From Octopus vulgaris (lineage: Eukaryota): a stretch of 64,000 nt of DNA. Below, piece after piece: positions 18,701 through 28,000 of the stretch (position 1 is its first letter; each line of letters opens with the position of its first letter). The position numbers were made by a program. Where the stretch lies: positions 13,454,001-13,518,000 of the forward strand of contig OX597838.1 in assembly GCA_951406725.2 (NCBI GenBank), written 5' to 3'.

Positions 18701-21700
18701 ATGGAAATCAGCAACATAGCTATGGTGACTACAACCAACAAGGTGGCTACGGAGGTGCTCCTCAGCAACCTCCCCCACAGGCACCATCTGGTGGCTATGG
18801 CGGCCCTCCTCCTCCCAAAAATTATGGCGGTAAGTGGCTAAGTATATCAGCTGTCGTTTTTCTTGTTGAAAATTAGCAAAATAAAATTTAGGGACTTGAA
18901 ATTGAATGTGGGTTTCAACATTGAATGTATTTATATTGTTTAGTAAATATTTTGAGAAAATTACTCTGATAGAAGAATTTTCAATGATACATTTGTACCG
19001 TTTTTAACTCTTTTGATATATTTCTGTAATAAAGGGGTGGGGGCATAAAAATCCCAATATTTTTGATTTACCTAAAACCTCATTGGGATGCAGATCAATA
19101 ATCATGCATTTTTCTCAATTGGGCTATAAACATACTCTCATATTGTAGTTTTCCTATATATATATATATATATATATATCTCTTGGTATCTATAAGTTAC
19201 AGGGCATTCTTATGTAGATTTATTAAAGGTAAGATGCAAATGTGTATTTAGTTTTTCTACATTTCTCTATATCTGAATCCATATTCTATTGAGTGTTAAG
19301 GTTTGGTTAGTAATATTAACCTGTGCACAGTTGTAACCATCAGTTCATGATTTTCTTTTTCAGACAATCGCAGTAGTAGTCGTGGTGGAGATCGTAGTGG
19401 CAGTGGCGACCGTGGTGAGCGCGGAGATCGTGGCAACAGTAGTGACAGAGGAAGTGGCAATTCAGGCTATGGGTGAGCTTAATTTTTCTATTTCCCCCCT
19501 AAAACTCTCATCTTGGTACATGACACTTAATTTCCTTTAAAATGTGTTTTCTAAAGAAATCTTGGACAGTAAGAGGAGTCAAGTTGTTGGTTCCAACGGA
19601 CATGTTTCCCTCCCATAAACAACTTGTCGGTAACATTTTCTTAATGGTGCTCTCTCCTCCGTTGATATTGGTAAGACATGTTACGTGCAAATTCTTTTAC
19701 AACACCTTTGTCACATTTCGGTGACTGTTGCGTTTAATCGACTATGACCTTTTGGCTTGTGTAAATTCTCAAGGTTACCTTCCCACTGCAATATCATCAT
19801 GAAACTGTTCTCCATTGGTCCAACTCATTTATTGTTATGAAATTGAAAGCTGTACAGTAGGGAAAACATGGTATGGATGAGTGGGTGGAAGTGTTTCACT
19901 TGGTCAGCATTTACAAAAAAAAGGACACGAGCATTCCAGGGAAAAGTTGTAAAATAATTTTTTATTTTGTTTTTACTTTTGCGCAAATTCTTTTTGGTGC
20001 ATTCAAGGACTCAAAAAAGACTCATATATGGGGGAAGAAATCAAAAAATTCTGAAGTTTCATCAAAACAATTTAAAAAAAAAATTTTTTTTAATTTCAAA
20101 AGACAATTTTTTTTAACATACATGAAATACTCTGGTACACTTGGTTGATATATTTTGCCTTGTCTCTAGGCTGTTTTTGCATGCAATATTCTGAGAATAT
20201 GGATAAGACTATTTGTTAGTCTGCTGGATTATCACTGAGTGTTGGTGGTATATTTCTTTGAATATGAATTATAGAAATTGAAAAGCTTATATGATTTTCT
20301 TAAATTGTTTCAAGCTTTAACAATCTAAATTGGTAGCTTCAGTTCTTTCATTATTTAGGATGTGATGGTAATGATGAGTTTGAATGTTTTGGCTGAATAC
20401 ATCTTTGCCATGCTTCTTATTTCAAAATCCTACAGTTTGTCTCTTTTGGTCAGTTGCTTAGTTCACTTAGGGTGATATATTAATCTATAATGGAAATTCT
20501 TAGAATCTCCTTTGCCATTTGGTTTTCAAATCCGTTCCTGCAGTAACAAGCTGTTTACATTTTATCAGCCCGTATCACCAAGGATAGTTGAACCTGTTGC
20601 AGCGATTGCCAATGTTTGCGTCATATCCAAACTGAGGGTGTAAAATTTGTCTCCTGGCTTTGTTTAATTGCAAGAAACTTAGTTTCTCAAGTATTTTTTT
20701 TCATCAAACTTGCATTTTCAAAAACTAGTTATGATGGTCATAATTAAAAATTAAAGGAAAATTATAAGAATTGTTGGGTGTGCTCAAAAGGTTTTATGAA
20801 ATGTGTTTATAAACAGTCCAGTAAGGTGTGCACATACGCTTTCTCTACAGCTTAGCAACTAACTGTTAAGTTATGCCATTGTGTGTGTGTGTGTGTGTGT
20901 GTATACATATGTATATATATGAATGAAAGACTGGAATGTTTGTATTGTGACATATGATATTGGTACCTGAACTCTTAGTTATCTGGATTGTGTTCAGTTC
21001 CACTGTATGAGTATTGTAAATAAAACACATTCTCATTGTATTCCATTGCTTCAAATCACTGGTTGCAGGTTTATTTGTCAGGTGGCTTAAATGACTCCAA
21101 TTAACTGATATTACTGGAGAGATTTTGAGGTGCGTTTGATATTAAAAGTTGAATTTAAAAAACAAAAAAGAAACAGCTACTGTTGGAGTATTGGAATGTG
21201 TTGGAATCTTTAAAAGTAATATAGGATTTGGATTTTTTTAAGAAAAATTTTTTTCTCATTTCTCATTTTCAGAGAAATCATTATCTATACATATTTTCCC
21301 ATAAATATGAAAACTGGTTCCATTACAAGCTATTGTTGCACCAATGCAATCATGAGATCCACAACTTGGCTTCACTGAATCCTGCAATGGATAAACCTAT
21401 CCCATTATTTCTCCCATCATATTTATTGGTTACTTGGTGTATTTTTTCCTTCAGACTTTCCCAAACCGAAACTTAAGGTTCTGCACCATTTCTATTTTCC
21501 TCCCTAGTGTAAAAAAAAAAATTATTAGTGAACTTTCAGTAAATTAAGTGAAATTATTAATATTAATTTATTACATGACATATTTTCCTTTTACTATTTA
21601 ATTCTCTTGCTTAAGTATTTAGTGTTTTTGGGGACCAGAAAAATTTGCAGAACTGAATGAGTGAATGAGTTTCAGTTGTTGGTATTGATGACCTGATTAA

Positions 21701-22029
21701 AATTAAAATTTTGTACAGATTGATACATTCAGTATATATAATTTTTCTGGTCCCAATGTCATTTCATTTACCCCACCTTTTTTTTTTTTCTTTACATATA
21801 CATCTGTTCAGAAATAGCAAAACTGGTCTTATTAATATTGTGTGTGTGTGATATACATGTGTATGGGCTTATTTAAAAGAATTTTTTTTTTTTCTAAGTG
21901 TGCTTTTAGTATAAATTGAAAATTGGGAGTATGTGTACTCTACTAAATTCTTTAGATTTTGGTAGAATACATATAAAGGGTACTTTGTGGGCATATTTTT
22001 AGTTTCCAAGGTTTACCATTCCTCAATCG

Positions 22030-25000: not shown

Positions 25001-28000
25001 TTTTTGTTTTATGTGGCAATTTTTCTCTTATGTTTTAATTTTCTAAAGTTTCTTTCTTTCTTTAAATTTTTCTTCATGCAGGCGGAGGTGGCAGTGGCAG
25101 TGGTTATGGAGGTAAGTTTTTGTAGCTTTTTTGAATAATTCCATTTACATAATTATTATTAACCCTTTAACATTTTAACTGTGGGGTGTATCTGGCCCAA
25201 ATTATCTACCTGTTGTACGTTCAAAAGTATTTGGATCATCAGTGCTAAGAAATTGGGCTGTTAATTCGAAGTGTAATGGGATACCTATAGTTGATTTTTA
25301 ACAATATTGGTGGTAAGTGTAAGAAGTTGACTTCACAATAATAGTCTCTGGTTTGATTTCTTTGGCACCTTGAGCAAAGGTCTTCCTACCATAGCTAAGA
25401 ACACACCAATACTTGGTGTAGAAAATGGAGTCTGCGGAACCTGTGCATGCATACACGGGCACACACACATAAACACTATACAAAGTATCACTATTATTTT
25501 TTACAATGCCAACTGTCTACAGAATTTATGAAATTTAAATGTATTGCTCTATAAGATATTGAATTTCTAATGTAATTTCATTGTAGATGGACCAATTATG
25601 GAAATGCCTGATACAGTGTTCGTTTGTGGACTAAATGAAGAGGTCACTGAAGATGCTCTAATTGAACATTTTGGAAGCATTGGTGTCATTAAGGTAAATT
25701 GAAGCATTAATTTATTTTGTATAAGGAAGATGGAGGAACCCTTTTGTCCAAGTCACTAAGTGTTGTGGTTCTGTAATTAGAAAAATTGTTCTCAGTATAC
25801 AAGATTATTAATTACTTCTACATAGATTGTTGCCCCCCCCCCTTTTTCCTAAAATTTAATGAAATTTGAGTTGCACAGTGTTTGTAAATTATTTTTGTGA
25901 ATTCCTTTCTTAAGACTGATAAGAAAACAAGCAAACCAAAGGTGTGGATCTACAAAGACAAGGCGACTGGTCGCGGAAAAGGCGAGGCTACTGTGACATA
26001 CGATGACCCTGAAAGCGCAAAGGCAGCTATCAATTGGTTTAATGGTAAGTTTAGTATTTCAATATACTGTACGTGAAGTTTCTGGAACATAAAAATTATT
26101 ATAAAGTTTTAAATGCGTGAAAGAAGTTACACTTTAAAGTGAATGATAGGAAGTCGAAAATATTTTTAGGATTCAATATGTCTAGGCATTGGTCATACTG
26201 GAGTTACACTCATTTAGATGTCCTGGTCTATTTGGTGGATTCTGATTTAAAATAGAAATTTTCGCCTTCTAAAGGTGTCATTATTAAGATCGGACACTTA
26301 TTTAAATGGCTTTATTCCCAAATGATGGTGTGTGATAGTTATCTCTTTCCCTGGTTTTGTTTTCAAATTCCAGAAATATTTAGTACTAAAATGAAATCTA
26401 GGTTTCATAAAATCGATAACATCCATTGAGAATGAATTTTGGTTGCTGTTAAATTGGGTTCAGTGTTCAGACCTAAATTTAGCTGTTGATGGGACTCACA
26501 AGTTTTAAAAATTCATATATTGGACTTTGTCTGTCTGTAGAAATCAATATTCTAATATTATTTAATTTGTCTTCAATTGTTAAAGATAAGTGTTTTTTTT
26601 ATGTTTGTCTAATCTGTTTTCTCACTAAATTTTTCAGAAAAAGATTTCCAGGGCAGAATAATTAAGGTTGAAATGGCCCAGAGAAAAGCTTGGTCTAGTG
26701 GCCGTGAAGGAAGAGGTTTGTTTTGTTTTTCTGTTCTCTGTTTTAGTAATGACAGAATGTTATCAAATGTATGGAGGAGATGAGAAAAATGGCTTGATTT
26801 AAAGTTGTGTATACCCTTGCTTTGATATTAGTGATGGTTCTAAATTAGCATCTGTTACATATGAGCGATGTTGATTGCTTTCAGTCCATTATAACTATGT
26901 CTGACAATAAGGAAATATTACCTTGGAAACCAACAAGAGTTGATGACCGGTATCTGGTTATAGAAAAATTGCTTCAAAAACTTTCGTCTGATCTGTGGAA
27001 ATGTGGACATGGACTGTTTGATCTTTAAAATTGAAGTTCTAATTGTCCCACTTGACTAATACAGTTGTCTGTTAATATTAAATACATTAAGAAGTAATTT
27101 TAACTGTTTCATTGGAACTTTGCTTTAAGAAATCCTTATTTAAAAGAAATATATAAGTTATTGTTTGTGAATTTAGTAATATCAAATGAGGTGCAAGTCT
27201 TTGGAAGACACATAGGTACATAGTAACTTAAGATTTCTGTGATCATTTGATCTTTATGTACACACACACACATACCATACATATCCAAGATTGTTGGTCT
27301 ATACATGTGTAGACTGATCTTGAGTTCTTCTGCCCTTGCTAGAAATAGCAACTGAATACCTTCAAATCATTTTACTGTCTTACATAATGAATGACCATGT
27401 TGAGCAATATAATCTTGTGTACCTGTTAATTACTAGATGGTCAATTCTAGAACACCTCAATCGTGTCCAAGAAAGCTGAACCAACGATGCAGCTACAAAT
27501 ATCATACTTCCCTTCTAAGACTGCAATATAGTCTTTTCTACTGTAGGCACAAGATCCGAAATTTTGGGAGGGGGCCAGTCAATTGCATTGACCCCACTAC
27601 GCAACTGGTACTTAATTTGTTGACCTCGAGAAGGATGTAAGGTAGTTGACTTCGGCAGAACTTGAACTCAATGTAAAGACAGACAAAATAGCCTGGCGTG
27701 CTGACATTTCTACCAGCTTGCTGCTGTGTTTTTTAATACTTAACCTCTGTTTGCTGTTGGTAACGGAGATTCACAGCAAATATTTCTTAATATACTTGCT
27801 GGTGACATGTAAAAGGCATCCAGCACTCTATGGAGTGACTGGCATCCAGCTGTAGAAAACACTCCAAAATAGACTGGAGCCTGGTGCAGTTCTCCTGCTT
27901 GCCAGTTCCATTTAGATTTGTACATCTAAGTTGTCTGATTCTGACATTTCTCATAAATATGTCTAATAAATGTTCTTTGTATTTTTTAAGGTGGCAGAGG

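What the first reader, a model, noticed from the sequence alone, without database searches (positions are those of the whole stretch)
19473..25611. FUS exon-7-type NMD autoregulation switch apparently conserved in this invertebrate gene
Seen: exon 8 (38 nt, RGGFNK) is not a multiple of 3. Skipping it joins exon 7 to exon 9 out of frame and reaches TGA at 25609..25611, upstream of seven junctions. Its flanking introns are long (3.9 kb and 1.6 kb), yet I recognise none of the SINEs that fill the intergenic DNA and introns 12, 13, 15 and 16. Caveat: introns 2-6 also lack them. Known: human FUS autoregulates through skipping of the homologous RGGFNK exon 7 (NMD) and retention of its conserved flanking introns 6 and 7. 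Inference: the same feedback loop and intron constraint exist here.
Basis: partly seen in the sequence, partly recalled or inferred. Interest (0 to 1): 0.72.

Follow-up and report, generated by a model that had tools for sequence, protein, structure and literature searches.

The report
Skippable 38-base exon in FUS-like gene

Summary
Exon 8 (23417..23454) is 38 nt and encodes GGRGGFNKSYGG. Skipping it gives TGA at 25609..25611, with seven junctions downstream. Introns 7 and 8 are 3944 and 1627 nt and hold no copy of the window's repeats.

- Skipping gives a premature stop for 9 of 15 internal exons.
- The repeat-free zone is one 16.7-kb block (8452..25157) covering introns 1-8, not only introns 7 and 8.

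Other evidence supports the idea:
- C. elegans fust-1 autoregulates by skipping an exon of exactly 38 nt upstream of its RRM (Cao 2021).
- 35 of 68 named invertebrate FET models have an N-terminus read in the +1 frame that rejoins the normal frame just before the RRM. 33 of these 35 lack the RGGFNK-type motif.
- Three normal/alternative pairs show a missing piece of 11-13 codons.
- Sense-strand GGT, the FUS zinc-finger motif, is enriched only in introns 7+8 (z +4.0).

Without exon 8, the window mRNA also carries a 574-codon ORF from its second AUG, as in worm isoform b.

Verdict: a predicted new member of a known autoregulatory cassette. The feedback loop, the NMD fate and intron conservation remain untested here.

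The parts
10610..33427 (+). FET-family (FUS/EWSR1/TAF15/cabeza-like) gene: coding part, 17 exons, 607 codons.
   Evidence: The model was read by hand and checked (all introns GT-AG, one open frame). Pfam gives RRM_1 on exons 10 and 11 and Zn_ribbon_RanBP on exon 15. tblastn of named mollusc, annelid and horseshoe-crab FET proteins hits exons 6 and 10-16 in the normal frame. The best named hits are 'RNA-binding protein cabeza-like'.
19364..19472 (+). Exon 7 (109 nt, RGG/Ser-rich). It ends ...GGC TAT GG| in phase 2.
   Evidence: In the +1 frame the same letters read ...A-M with one G left over. That matches the '...AM|G' rejoin point in the alternative isoform models of Haliotis, Argopecten, Schistocerca and Zootermopsis.
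19469..19471 (+). The last of 20 +1-frame ATG codons upstream of the junction. If exon 8 is skipped it is in frame with the RRM.
19473..23416 (+). Intron 7 (3944 nt). It has no copy of the window's repeat families and shows a sense-strand GGT/GGTG excess. If it is retained, the first stop is TGA 19474..19476.
23417..23454 (+). Exon 8: the 38-nt (3n+2) cassette encoding GGRGGFNKSYGG. This is the candidate regulated exon.
   Evidence: The motif is shared with Tachypleus, Opisthorchis and Diploscapter, zebrafish Fus and the end of human EWSR1 exon 9. Its length equals that of C. elegans fust-1 exon 5. Its splice sites are average for this gene.
23455..25081 (+). Intron 8 (1627 nt). It has no copy of the window's repeat families and shows a GGT excess. 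If it is retained, the first stop is TGA 23460..23462.
25082..25111 (+). Exon 9 (30 nt, Gly/Ser-rich, a multiple of 3).
25587..25693 (+). Exon 10 (107 nt), the start of the RRM.
25609..25611 (+). TGA reached from the main AUG when exon 8 is skipped. It lies 82 nt before the end of exon 10, with 7 junctions downstream.
15530..15532 (+). First +1-frame ATG (exon 3) and the second AUG of the mRNA. In an exon-8-skipped mRNA it opens a 574-codon ORF that ends at the natural stop.
   Evidence: That the +1 frame stays open is explained by composition.
8452..25157 (.). A 16,706-nt block without any interspersed repeat shared with the rest of the window. It covers the promoter side, exons 1-9 and introns 1-8.
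   Evidence: The next longest such stretch is 3,409 nt.

Best explanation
Exon 8 is this animal's copy of an old, short, frame-shifting (3n+2) exon that sits between the first RGG region and the RRM of FET-family genes.

Proposed mechanism:
1. When the FET protein is abundant, it binds its own pre-mRNA around this exon. The likely contacts are GGU motifs in introns 7 and 8.
2. Binding lowers inclusion of the 38-nt exon. It may also delay removal of the two flanking introns.
3. Ribosomes that start at the main AUG (10610) on the exon-8-skipped mRNA stop at TGA 25609..25611. That mRNA therefore yields no full protein and is a candidate for nonsense-mediated decay.
4. The net effect is negative feedback on the protein's level.

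What is shown here: the exon, its phases, the stop, the motif, the open +1 frame, the GGT excess, and the existence of matching exon-less models in other species.

What is inferred: that the exon is skipped in this animal, that its own protein drives the skipping, and what happens to the skipped mRNA.
For: 1. Anatomy. The exon is 38 nt, enters in phase 2 and leaves in phase 1, and encodes RGGFNK. Skipping gives TGA 25609..25611.
2. Worm precedent. C. elegans fust-1 exon 5 is '38 nt in length' and lies upstream of the RRM. FUST-1 isoform a promotes its skipping, shown with a splicing reporter, two mutants and cDNA rescue (Cao 2021 preprint, passages and section 9).
3. Human precedent. [quoted passage not shown] The skipped mRNA is frame-shifted and sensitive to cycloheximide (Zhou 2013, passages).
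4. Census of 68 named metazoan FET models. 35 have an N-terminus rich in V/A/M/E/L/I that rejoins the normal frame 6-40 residues before the RRM. 27 of these 35 are NCBI 'isoform X' models from 25 species, including Haliotis (two species), Babylonia, Littorina and Argopecten. 33 of the 35 lack a G[GS][FY][NQK][NKQ] motif.
5. Pairs of normal and alternative models.
   - Artemia X2/X3: 25 of 25 residues fit a +1 reading, and 11 codons are missing (GAPRGGGGYGR).
   - Nippostrongylus: 25 of 25 fit, and 11 codons are missing (PGGPGGRGGFQ).
   - Ticks: 18 of 20 fit, and about 13 codons are missing (NQGGPGGRGSYNK).
   - A shift from the +1 frame back to the normal frame requires a missing piece of 3n+2 nt.
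6. Of the two 3n+2 exons between the low-complexity region and the RRM core (exons 8 and 10), only exon 8 lies outside a folded domain. The frame needed after skipping a 3n+1 exon (+2) has 16 stops in exons 1-7.
7. GGT in introns 7+8: 95 observed against 71.1 expected, z +4.0, with 0 of 500 shuffles reaching it. Its complement ACC gives z -2.4. Introns 1-6 give z -1.0 and introns 9-16 give z -0.75. GGU is the motif read by the FUS zinc finger (PMC12344763, passages). The window's zinc finger keeps the N-F-x-W-R-N stretch.
8. In flies, overexpressed human FUS lowers cabeza (review PMC7831090, passage).
Against: - There are no transcript data for this animal. Skipping, feedback and decay are all unobserved.
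- 'Skip gives a premature stop' holds for 9 of 15 internal exons.
- Exon 8's splice sites are ordinary for this gene: pyrimidine fraction 0.72 and 7 of 9 matches to the donor consensus.
- The repeat-free state is shared by introns 1-8.
- Humphrey 2020 found no exon 7 skipping in their mouse and human samples.
- In Artemia the missing piece lacks F/Y-N-K and lies about 39 residues before the RRM, so it may be a different exon.
- 8 of the 35 +1-type models are not NCBI isoform models. Two of these (Aromia, Diploscapter) keep the motif, and one (R. microplus P0038) carries a 13-residue piece that fits no reading of the normal exon. So gene predictors can produce +1-frame N-termini by error.
- I could not see the transcript evidence behind the NCBI models (one search did not complete).
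- The mollusc +1 N-termini did not align to the window's +1 frame at E <= 1e-3.
- The GGT excess is only 1.34-fold and was found after testing several motifs. FUS also binds RNA with little sequence preference (PMC4551922, abstract in the listing).
Confidence: 0.55

Rival explanations
1. Exon 8 is an ordinary constitutive exon. Its length and the stop reached on skipping are incidental. The long, repeat-free flanking introns reflect a property of the whole 5' half of the gene, not a splicing switch.
For: - 10 of 15 internal exons are not multiples of 3, and 9 give a premature stop when skipped.
- Exon 8's splice sites are average for the gene.
- One repeat-free block, 8452..25157, covers introns 1-8.
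- No specific complementary arms bridge the exon. Only poly(A)/poly(T) pairs were found.
- Rfam found no known RNA family anywhere in the window.
Against: - The same exon class is skipped in a regulated way in the worm, and reportedly in human cells.
- 27 NCBI isoform models from 25 species show the exon-less layout.
- The GGT excess is confined to introns 7+8.
Confidence: 0.2
2. The exon is skipped, but the main product is a second protein rather than a decay substrate. Translation from the second AUG (15530) in the +1 frame crosses exons 3-7 and rejoins the normal frame at exon 9. The result is a protein with a different N-terminus and the same RRM, zinc finger, RGG boxes and PY signal, like C. 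elegans FUST-1 isoform b.
For: - The 574-codon ORF has 0 stops in the +1 frame across exons 1-7 and 20 ATGs, and only the main AUG lies upstream of its first ATG.
- Worm isoform b is made this way and was seen with tagged reporters.
- NCBI annotates such proteins in 25 species.
Against: - The open +1 frame is what the amino-acid composition predicts. Only 3 codons in exons 1-7 can start a +1 stop, and 32% of codon-order shuffles also have none.
- The main AUG has a strong context (A at -3, G at +4), so few ribosomes should reach the second AUG.
- An annotated protein in a database is the longest ORF of a transcript model. It is not evidence that the protein is made.
- In the worm, isoform b was inactive in the assays used.
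Confidence: 0.2
3. Feedback works mainly by retention of introns 7 and 8 with nuclear detention of the transcript, as reported for mammalian FUS introns 6 and 7. Exon skipping is minor.
For: - Humphrey 2020 found intron 6/7 retention that responds to FUS dose, is enriched in the nucleus and is insensitive to NMD. No exon 7 skipping was detected.
- Introns 7 and 8 here are long and GGT-enriched.
- Either intron, if retained, gives an immediate stop.
Against: - Nothing in the sequence distinguishes retention from skipping.
- The invertebrate isoform models and the worm experiments point to skipping.
- Intron conservation, the hallmark of the mammalian case, could not be tested.
Confidence: 0.15

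Closest known systems
Human/mouse FUS exon 7 with introns 6 and 7 (Zhou et al. 2013, PMC3814325; Humphrey et al. 2020, PMC7337901)
   Same: - The gene belongs to the same family.
- A small exon upstream of the RRM shifts the frame when skipped and gives a stop in the next coding exon(s).
- The two flanking introns are comparatively long, and here they carry an excess of the motif read by the FUS zinc finger.
   Different: - Here one further 30-nt exon lies between the cassette and the first RRM exon.
- The mammalian introns are defined by high cross-species conservation (77% human-mouse identity, against 40% for the other introns) and by CLIP binding. Neither could be tested here.
- That human exon 7 encodes RGGFNK, and its length, were seen in no call. 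The only vertebrate exon boundary I saw is human EWSR1 exon 9, which ends just after RGGFNKPG.
- Whether exon 7 skipping operates in vivo in mammals is disputed.
C. elegans fust-1 exon 5 autoregulation loop (Cao 2021, bioRxiv 10.1101/2021.03.22.436400; Genetics 219:iyab145)
   Same: - It is an invertebrate FET gene.
- The exon is 38 nt, upstream of the RRM.
- Skipping is compensated by a downstream AUG in the +1 frame, so the RRM, zinc finger and NLS are read normally. The same ORF layout exists in the window.
   Different: - In the worm the outcome described is a second protein isoform, not NMD.
- What worm exon 5 encodes was not visible to me: the figures and supplements are closed, and the journal version is not held.
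- The nearest evidence comes from other nematodes. In Nippostrongylus the missing piece is PGGPGGRGGFQ, and the Diploscapter model carries DRGGFNQGG.
Autoregulatory exon skipping coupled to NMD in other RNA-binding proteins (PTB, hnRNP L and others, as cited)
   Same: The logic is the same: the protein represses an exon of its own pre-mRNA, and the product is unproductive.
   Different: The proteins and exons are unrelated. Those cases do not have a stop-free alternative frame across a low-complexity region that could rescue a long ORF.

Membership tests
FET family (FUS/EWSR1/TAF15/cabeza) | N-terminal low-complexity region rich in S, Y, G and Q. | tested here: met
   The translations of exons 2-6 are Q/G/S/Y-rich. 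Exon 6 aligns with the N-terminal regions of the Paralvinella and Tachypleus proteins.
FET family (FUS/EWSR1/TAF15/cabeza) | One RRM followed by an RGG region and a RanBP2-type zinc finger. | tested here: met
   Searched exon by exon:
- RRM_1 on exon 11: 26.6 bits, above the 20.7 cut-off.
- RRM_1 on exon 10: 19.1 bits, below the cut-off.
- Zn_ribbon_RanBP on exon 15: 23.8 bits, below the 27 cut-off, because the domain is split over exons 14 and 15.
tblastn of seven named FET proteins covers exons 10-16.
FET family (FUS/EWSR1/TAF15/cabeza) | C-terminal RGG boxes and a PY-type nuclear localisation signal. | tested here: met
   Exon 16 is RGG-rich, and exon 17 ends ...RPRPYP before the stop. The homologues end ...RPKPY or ...RSRPY.
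FUS exon-7 / fust-1 exon-5 type autoregulatory cassette | A short exon of length 3n+2 between the first RGG region and the RRM. | tested here: met
   The exon is 38 nt, entering in phase 2 and leaving in phase 1. In the worm the exon is 38 nt. The pieces inferred from model pairs are 35 nt (Nippostrongylus, Artemia) and about 41 nt (ticks).
FUS exon-7 / fust-1 exon-5 type autoregulatory cassette | The exon is skipped in vivo. | not testable with these tools
   There are no transcript data for this animal. The indirect evidence is the 27 NCBI isoform models in 25 other species that have the exon-less layout.
FUS exon-7 / fust-1 exon-5 type autoregulatory cassette | Skipping is promoted by the gene's own protein, which binds the exon and its flanking introns. 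| not testable with these tools
   There is only a lead: a sense-strand GGT excess in introns 7+8 (z +4.0).
FUS exon-7 / fust-1 exon-5 type autoregulatory cassette | The skipped mRNA is unproductive (NMD), or it encodes an inactive isoform. | tested here: inconclusive
   Both outcomes are possible from the sequence. There is a stop at 25609..25611 when reading from the main AUG, and a 574-codon ORF from the second AUG.
FUS exon-7 / fust-1 exon-5 type autoregulatory cassette | The flanking introns are far more conserved across species than the other introns (mammalian form). | not testable with these tools
No related animal genome was available.

The most novel reading that the evidence does not exclude
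The 3n+2 RGGF exon and the stop-free +1 frame of the low-complexity region together form a two-frame switch that is shared across animals. Leaving the exon out turns the FET mRNA into one that encodes, from its second AUG, a protein with a wholly different N-terminus but the same RRM, zinc finger and nuclear signal. This is what is reported for worm FUST-1 isoform b. In the window it is a 574-codon ORF. Feedback would then work by swapping an active protein for an inactive or competing one, not only by mRNA decay.
Probability: 0.2. Interest if true: 0.75.

Novelty: new member of a known kind. Interest (0 to 1): 0.5.

Why it matters
FUS dosage control is central to FUS-linked ALS, and whether it runs through exon 7 skipping or through intron retention is disputed. 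If one short frame-shifting exon is left out in worms, ticks, insects, molluscs, a coral and amphioxus, then exon skipping is an old feature of the family and not a cell-line curiosity. Invertebrates with a single FET gene would then be simple systems in which to study it.

The papers I read treat the worm and human cases as merely similar. Two literature searches turned up no statement that the same exon is involved, or that the exon-less layout is widespread. That is not proof that nobody has said so.

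Tried and rejected
- **Rfam and tRNA scans of the whole window**. Nothing was found, so no known snoRNA, miRNA or other Rfam family explains the long introns.
- **Inverted repeats across exon 8 that could loop it out**. Only poly(A)/poly(T) pairs were found.
- **Weak splice sites as a mark of a regulated exon**. Exon 8 is average for the gene.
- **Selection for an open +1 frame**. None was detectable: 0 stops observed, 0.89 expected, and 32% of shuffles also have none.
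- **Aligning the mollusc +1-type N-termini to the window's +1 frame by tblastn**. There was no hit at E <= 1e-3, so the link rests on layout and the junction motif.
- **Searching the +1-frame reading of exon 6 against 1.84 billion representative proteins**. There were two hits. One is an unnamed 114-residue protein, 91% identical, about the length of the same open frame in genomic DNA. The other is weak (E 3.9e-9, 35% identity). Neither says anything about splicing, and neither was fetched or used.
- **The first protein search, with exon 11**. The best identity was 86%, including Mya arenaria. By similarity the animal is probably a mollusc or another lophotrochozoan.
- **Per-intron GGTG, GTGGT, TGTGTG and GGGG counts**. 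Only GGTG in intron 7 (z +2.9) and GGT in introns 7 and 8 stood out. The TGTGTG runs are microsatellites and also occur in introns 1 and 15.
- **Literature.**
  - The journal version of Cao 2021 is not held, and bioRxiv supplements are closed, so the content of worm exon 5 stayed unseen.
  - Zhou 2013 gives no length for exon 7 in the text I searched.
  - One broad search gave nothing relevant.
  - Cluster look-up for accession numbers was not available.

Full report
**What is there**

The window carries a 17-exon gene on the + strand. It runs from ATG 10610 to TAG 33425..33427, all 16 introns are GT-AG, and it gives one open frame of 607 codons (sequence; checked).

Because a spliced model was to be searched exon by exon, I never sent the joined protein to a search. 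That step was left out. The exon-by-exon results are:
- Pfam finds RRM_1 on exons 10 and 11 and the RanBP2-type zinc finger on exon 15.
- Exon 11 finds 'RNA-binding protein cabeza-like' proteins, with a best identity of 86%.
- tblastn of named mollusc, annelid and horseshoe-crab FET proteins lands on exons 6 and 10-16 in the model's frame.

So this is the single FET-family gene (FUS/EWSR1/TAF15/cabeza) of an invertebrate. By similarity it is probably a mollusc or another lophotrochozoan. The window has no N, and I do not take it for human.

**The observation**

- Exon 8 is 23417..23454, 38 nt, and encodes GGRGGFNKSYGG.
- Exon 7 ends at 19472 and exon 9 starts at 25082.
- Introns 7 and 8 are 3944 and 1627 nt.
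- Without exon 8, the first stop is TGA 25609..25611 in exon 10, with seven junctions downstream.

**How special is it?**

First, 10 of 15 internal exons are not multiples of 3. For 9 of these 10, skipping gives a stop upstream of at least one junction. Exons 2, 3, 4 and 7 also reach a stop in exon 10 with seven junctions downstream. For exon 16 no stop was found within the model.

Second, the lack of SINEs is not a property of introns 7 and 8:
- A self-comparison of the window gives 48 repeated blocks, all of them outside 8452..25157.
- That block is 16,706 nt long. The next longest repeat-free stretch is 3,409 nt.
- Profiles built from 18 repeat seeds found nothing in the block except matches to (AT)n runs.
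- Copies do lie in introns 9, 12, 13, 15 and 16.

At about one block per kb elsewhere, roughly 5.7 blocks would be expected in introns 7+8 and 8.2 in introns 1-6. This is my arithmetic, and it is rough because the blocks are not independent events. The depletion is therefore real, but it belongs to the whole 5' part of the gene. This method only sees repeat families with at least two copies in the window.

Exon 8's splice sites are average for the gene. No specific complementary arms bridge the exon. No known RNA family sits in the introns.

**What the literature adds**

- Zhou 2013 (passages). FUS binds exon 7 and its conserved flanking introns and represses the exon. The skipped mRNA is frame-shifted with a stop in exon 8.
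- Humphrey 2020 (passages). No exon 7 skipping was seen in their mouse and human data. Instead they saw dose-dependent retention of introns 6 and 7, with nuclear detention that was insensitive to NMD.
- Cao 2021 (preprint, passages and section 9). In C. elegans, FUST-1 isoform a promotes skipping of fust-1 exon 5. That exon is '38 nt in length' and lies upstream of the RRM. The skipped mRNA is read from a downstream AUG in the +1 frame, so the RRM, zinc finger and NLS stay in frame (isoform b).
- The window's exon 8 has exactly that length.
- A fly review reports that overexpressed human FUS lowers cabeza.
- A table of fusion peptides shows that human EWSR1 exon 9 ends just after RGGFNKPG. Zebrafish Fus carries DRGGFNKFGG.
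- That human FUS exon 7 itself encodes this motif was seen in no call.

**What the public protein models add**

Three protein searches gave 157 hits. From these I took the 68 metazoan models that carry an organism name. I dropped the following:
- all hits without an organism name;
- nine plant, algal or fungal models;
- one rotifer fragment (an oversight).

The census gave these classes:

| Class of model | Number of 68 |
|---|---|
| '+1-like': region 25-140 residues before the RRM is rich in V/A/M/E/L/I and poor in Q/G/S/Y | 35 |
| Normal | 15 |
| Intermediate | 5 |
| Too short to class | 10 |
| No RRM anchor found | 3 |

- Of the 35 +1-like models, 27 are NCBI 'isoform X' models from 25 species. 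They include ticks, insects, Artemia, five molluscs, amphioxus and a soft coral.
- 33 of the 35 lack a G[GS][FY][NQK][NKQ] motif within 70 residues of the RRM.
- Of the 20 normal or intermediate models, 8 have the motif.

Where both forms are available, the alternative N-terminus is the +1 reading of the normal one, up to a point just before the RRM. There a short piece is missing:

| Pair | Residues fitting a +1 reading | Missing piece |
|---|---|---|
| Artemia X2/X3 | 25 of 25 | GAPRGGGGYGR (11 codons) |
| Nippostrongylus | 25 of 25 | PGGPGGRGGFQ (11 codons) |
| Rhipicephalus microplus vs R. sanguineus and Dermacentor | 18 of 20 each | NQGGPGGRGSYNK (about 13 codons) |

Background offsets reached at most 10-17 matches. 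A return from the +1 frame to the normal frame needs a missing piece of 3n+2 nt, so the pieces are about 35 and 41 nt.

In Haliotis, Argopecten, Schistocerca and Zootermopsis the rejoin reads '...AM|G'. That is the +1 reading of '...TAT GG|', the letters that end the window's exon 7.

Caveats:
- The share 35 of 68 reflects what the searches returned. It is not a frequency.
- Eight of the 35 are not NCBI isoform models. Three of those look like predictor errors (Aromia and Diploscapter keep the motif; P0038 has an odd insert).
- The Artemia piece lacks F/Y-N-K and lies further from the RRM.
- I could not see the transcript evidence behind the NCBI models.

**The window seen in that light**

With exon 8 left out, the frame that is normal from exon 9 onward is open back to TAA 10569.
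- It holds 20 ATGs. The first is at 15530 in exon 3 and is the second AUG of the mRNA. The last is at 19469..19471.
- It gives a 574-codon ORF that ends at the natural stop.
- The +1 frame has 0 stops in exons 1-7, while the +2 frame has 16.
- This makes exon 8 special after all. Of the two 3n+2 exons downstream of the low-complexity region (exons 8 and 10), it is the one outside a folded domain.
- The open +1 frame needs no selection to explain it. Only 3 codons can start a +1 stop, and 32% of codon-order shuffles have none.

**A lead on binding**

After dinucleotide-preserving shuffles:
- Sense-strand GGT is enriched in introns 7+8 together: 95 observed against 71.1 expected, z +4.0, with 0 of 500 shuffles reaching it.
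- GGT is not enriched in introns 1-6 (z -1.0) or in introns 9-16 (z -0.75).
- The complement ACC is depleted in introns 7+8 (z -2.4).
- GGTG gives z +2.6 there.

GGU is the motif read by the FUS zinc finger (PMC12344763, passages). The excess is 1.34-fold and was found after trying several motifs. FUS is also known to bind RNA loosely (abstract). I treat this as a lead only.

**Conclusion**

Exon 8 is very probably this animal's copy of an old frame-shifting exon of FET genes. Self-promoted skipping of such an exon is shown in the worm and reported in human cells, and many invertebrate gene models show it left out.

Three things remain untested for this gene: the feedback itself, the fate of the skipped mRNA (decay, a second protein, or intron retention instead), and any special constraint on introns 7 and 8.

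I file it as a predicted new member of a known kind.

Noticed in passing
window 8959..10106: A 1.1-kb tandem array with a 48-nt GA-rich unit and about 23.5 copies lies 0.5 kb upstream of the gene's start codon. It sits inside the repeat-free block.
   Followed up: no
window 47325..48143 (+): An open frame of 272 codons matches the Major royal jelly protein / yellow family (Pfam MRJP, E 4.3e-07). Atlas look-alikes are 'yellow-like', mostly from arthropods. It is probably one exon of a neighbouring gene.
   Followed up: partly
window 46100..47100 and 42850..43420: Two long low-complexity tracts are visible as long pseudo-ORFs. One is about 0.9 kb, CA/TG-rich and imperfect. The other is about 0.5 kb and A/T-rich with a triplet-like pattern.
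   Followed up: no
window 31334..33353 (intron 16); also 27577..27924, 28244..28787, 25159..25442, 29992..30069: At least three interspersed repeat families, with up to 14 copies in the window, fill 55% of intron 16. Fragments lie in introns 9, 12, 13 and 15. ARAGORN found no tRNA-like gene in them.
   Followed up: partly
P0038 (Rhipicephalus microplus), P0072 (Aromia moschata), P0118 (Diploscapter pachys): These are non-NCBI gene models with a +1-frame N-terminus that still keep the RGGFN motif or carry an unexplained 13-residue insert. They look like gene-prediction errors caused by the open +1 frame of the low-complexity region.
   Followed up: partly
P0001 (Centruroides sculpturatus X4), P0035 (Hyalomma asiaticum): The first half of the RRM is duplicated in tandem in these models. 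This is probably an assembly or model artefact.
   Followed up: no
P0158: An unnamed 114-residue database protein is 91% identical to the +1-frame reading of exon 6. Its length matches that open frame in genomic DNA, so DNA of a close relative seems to be present in the public collection. It was not fetched or traced.
   Followed up: no
window 23443..23444: A GT inside exon 8 (AAA|GTTATG) could serve as a weak alternative donor 12 nt upstream of the main one. The exon would then be 26 nt, also 3n+2. This was read only.
   Followed up: no
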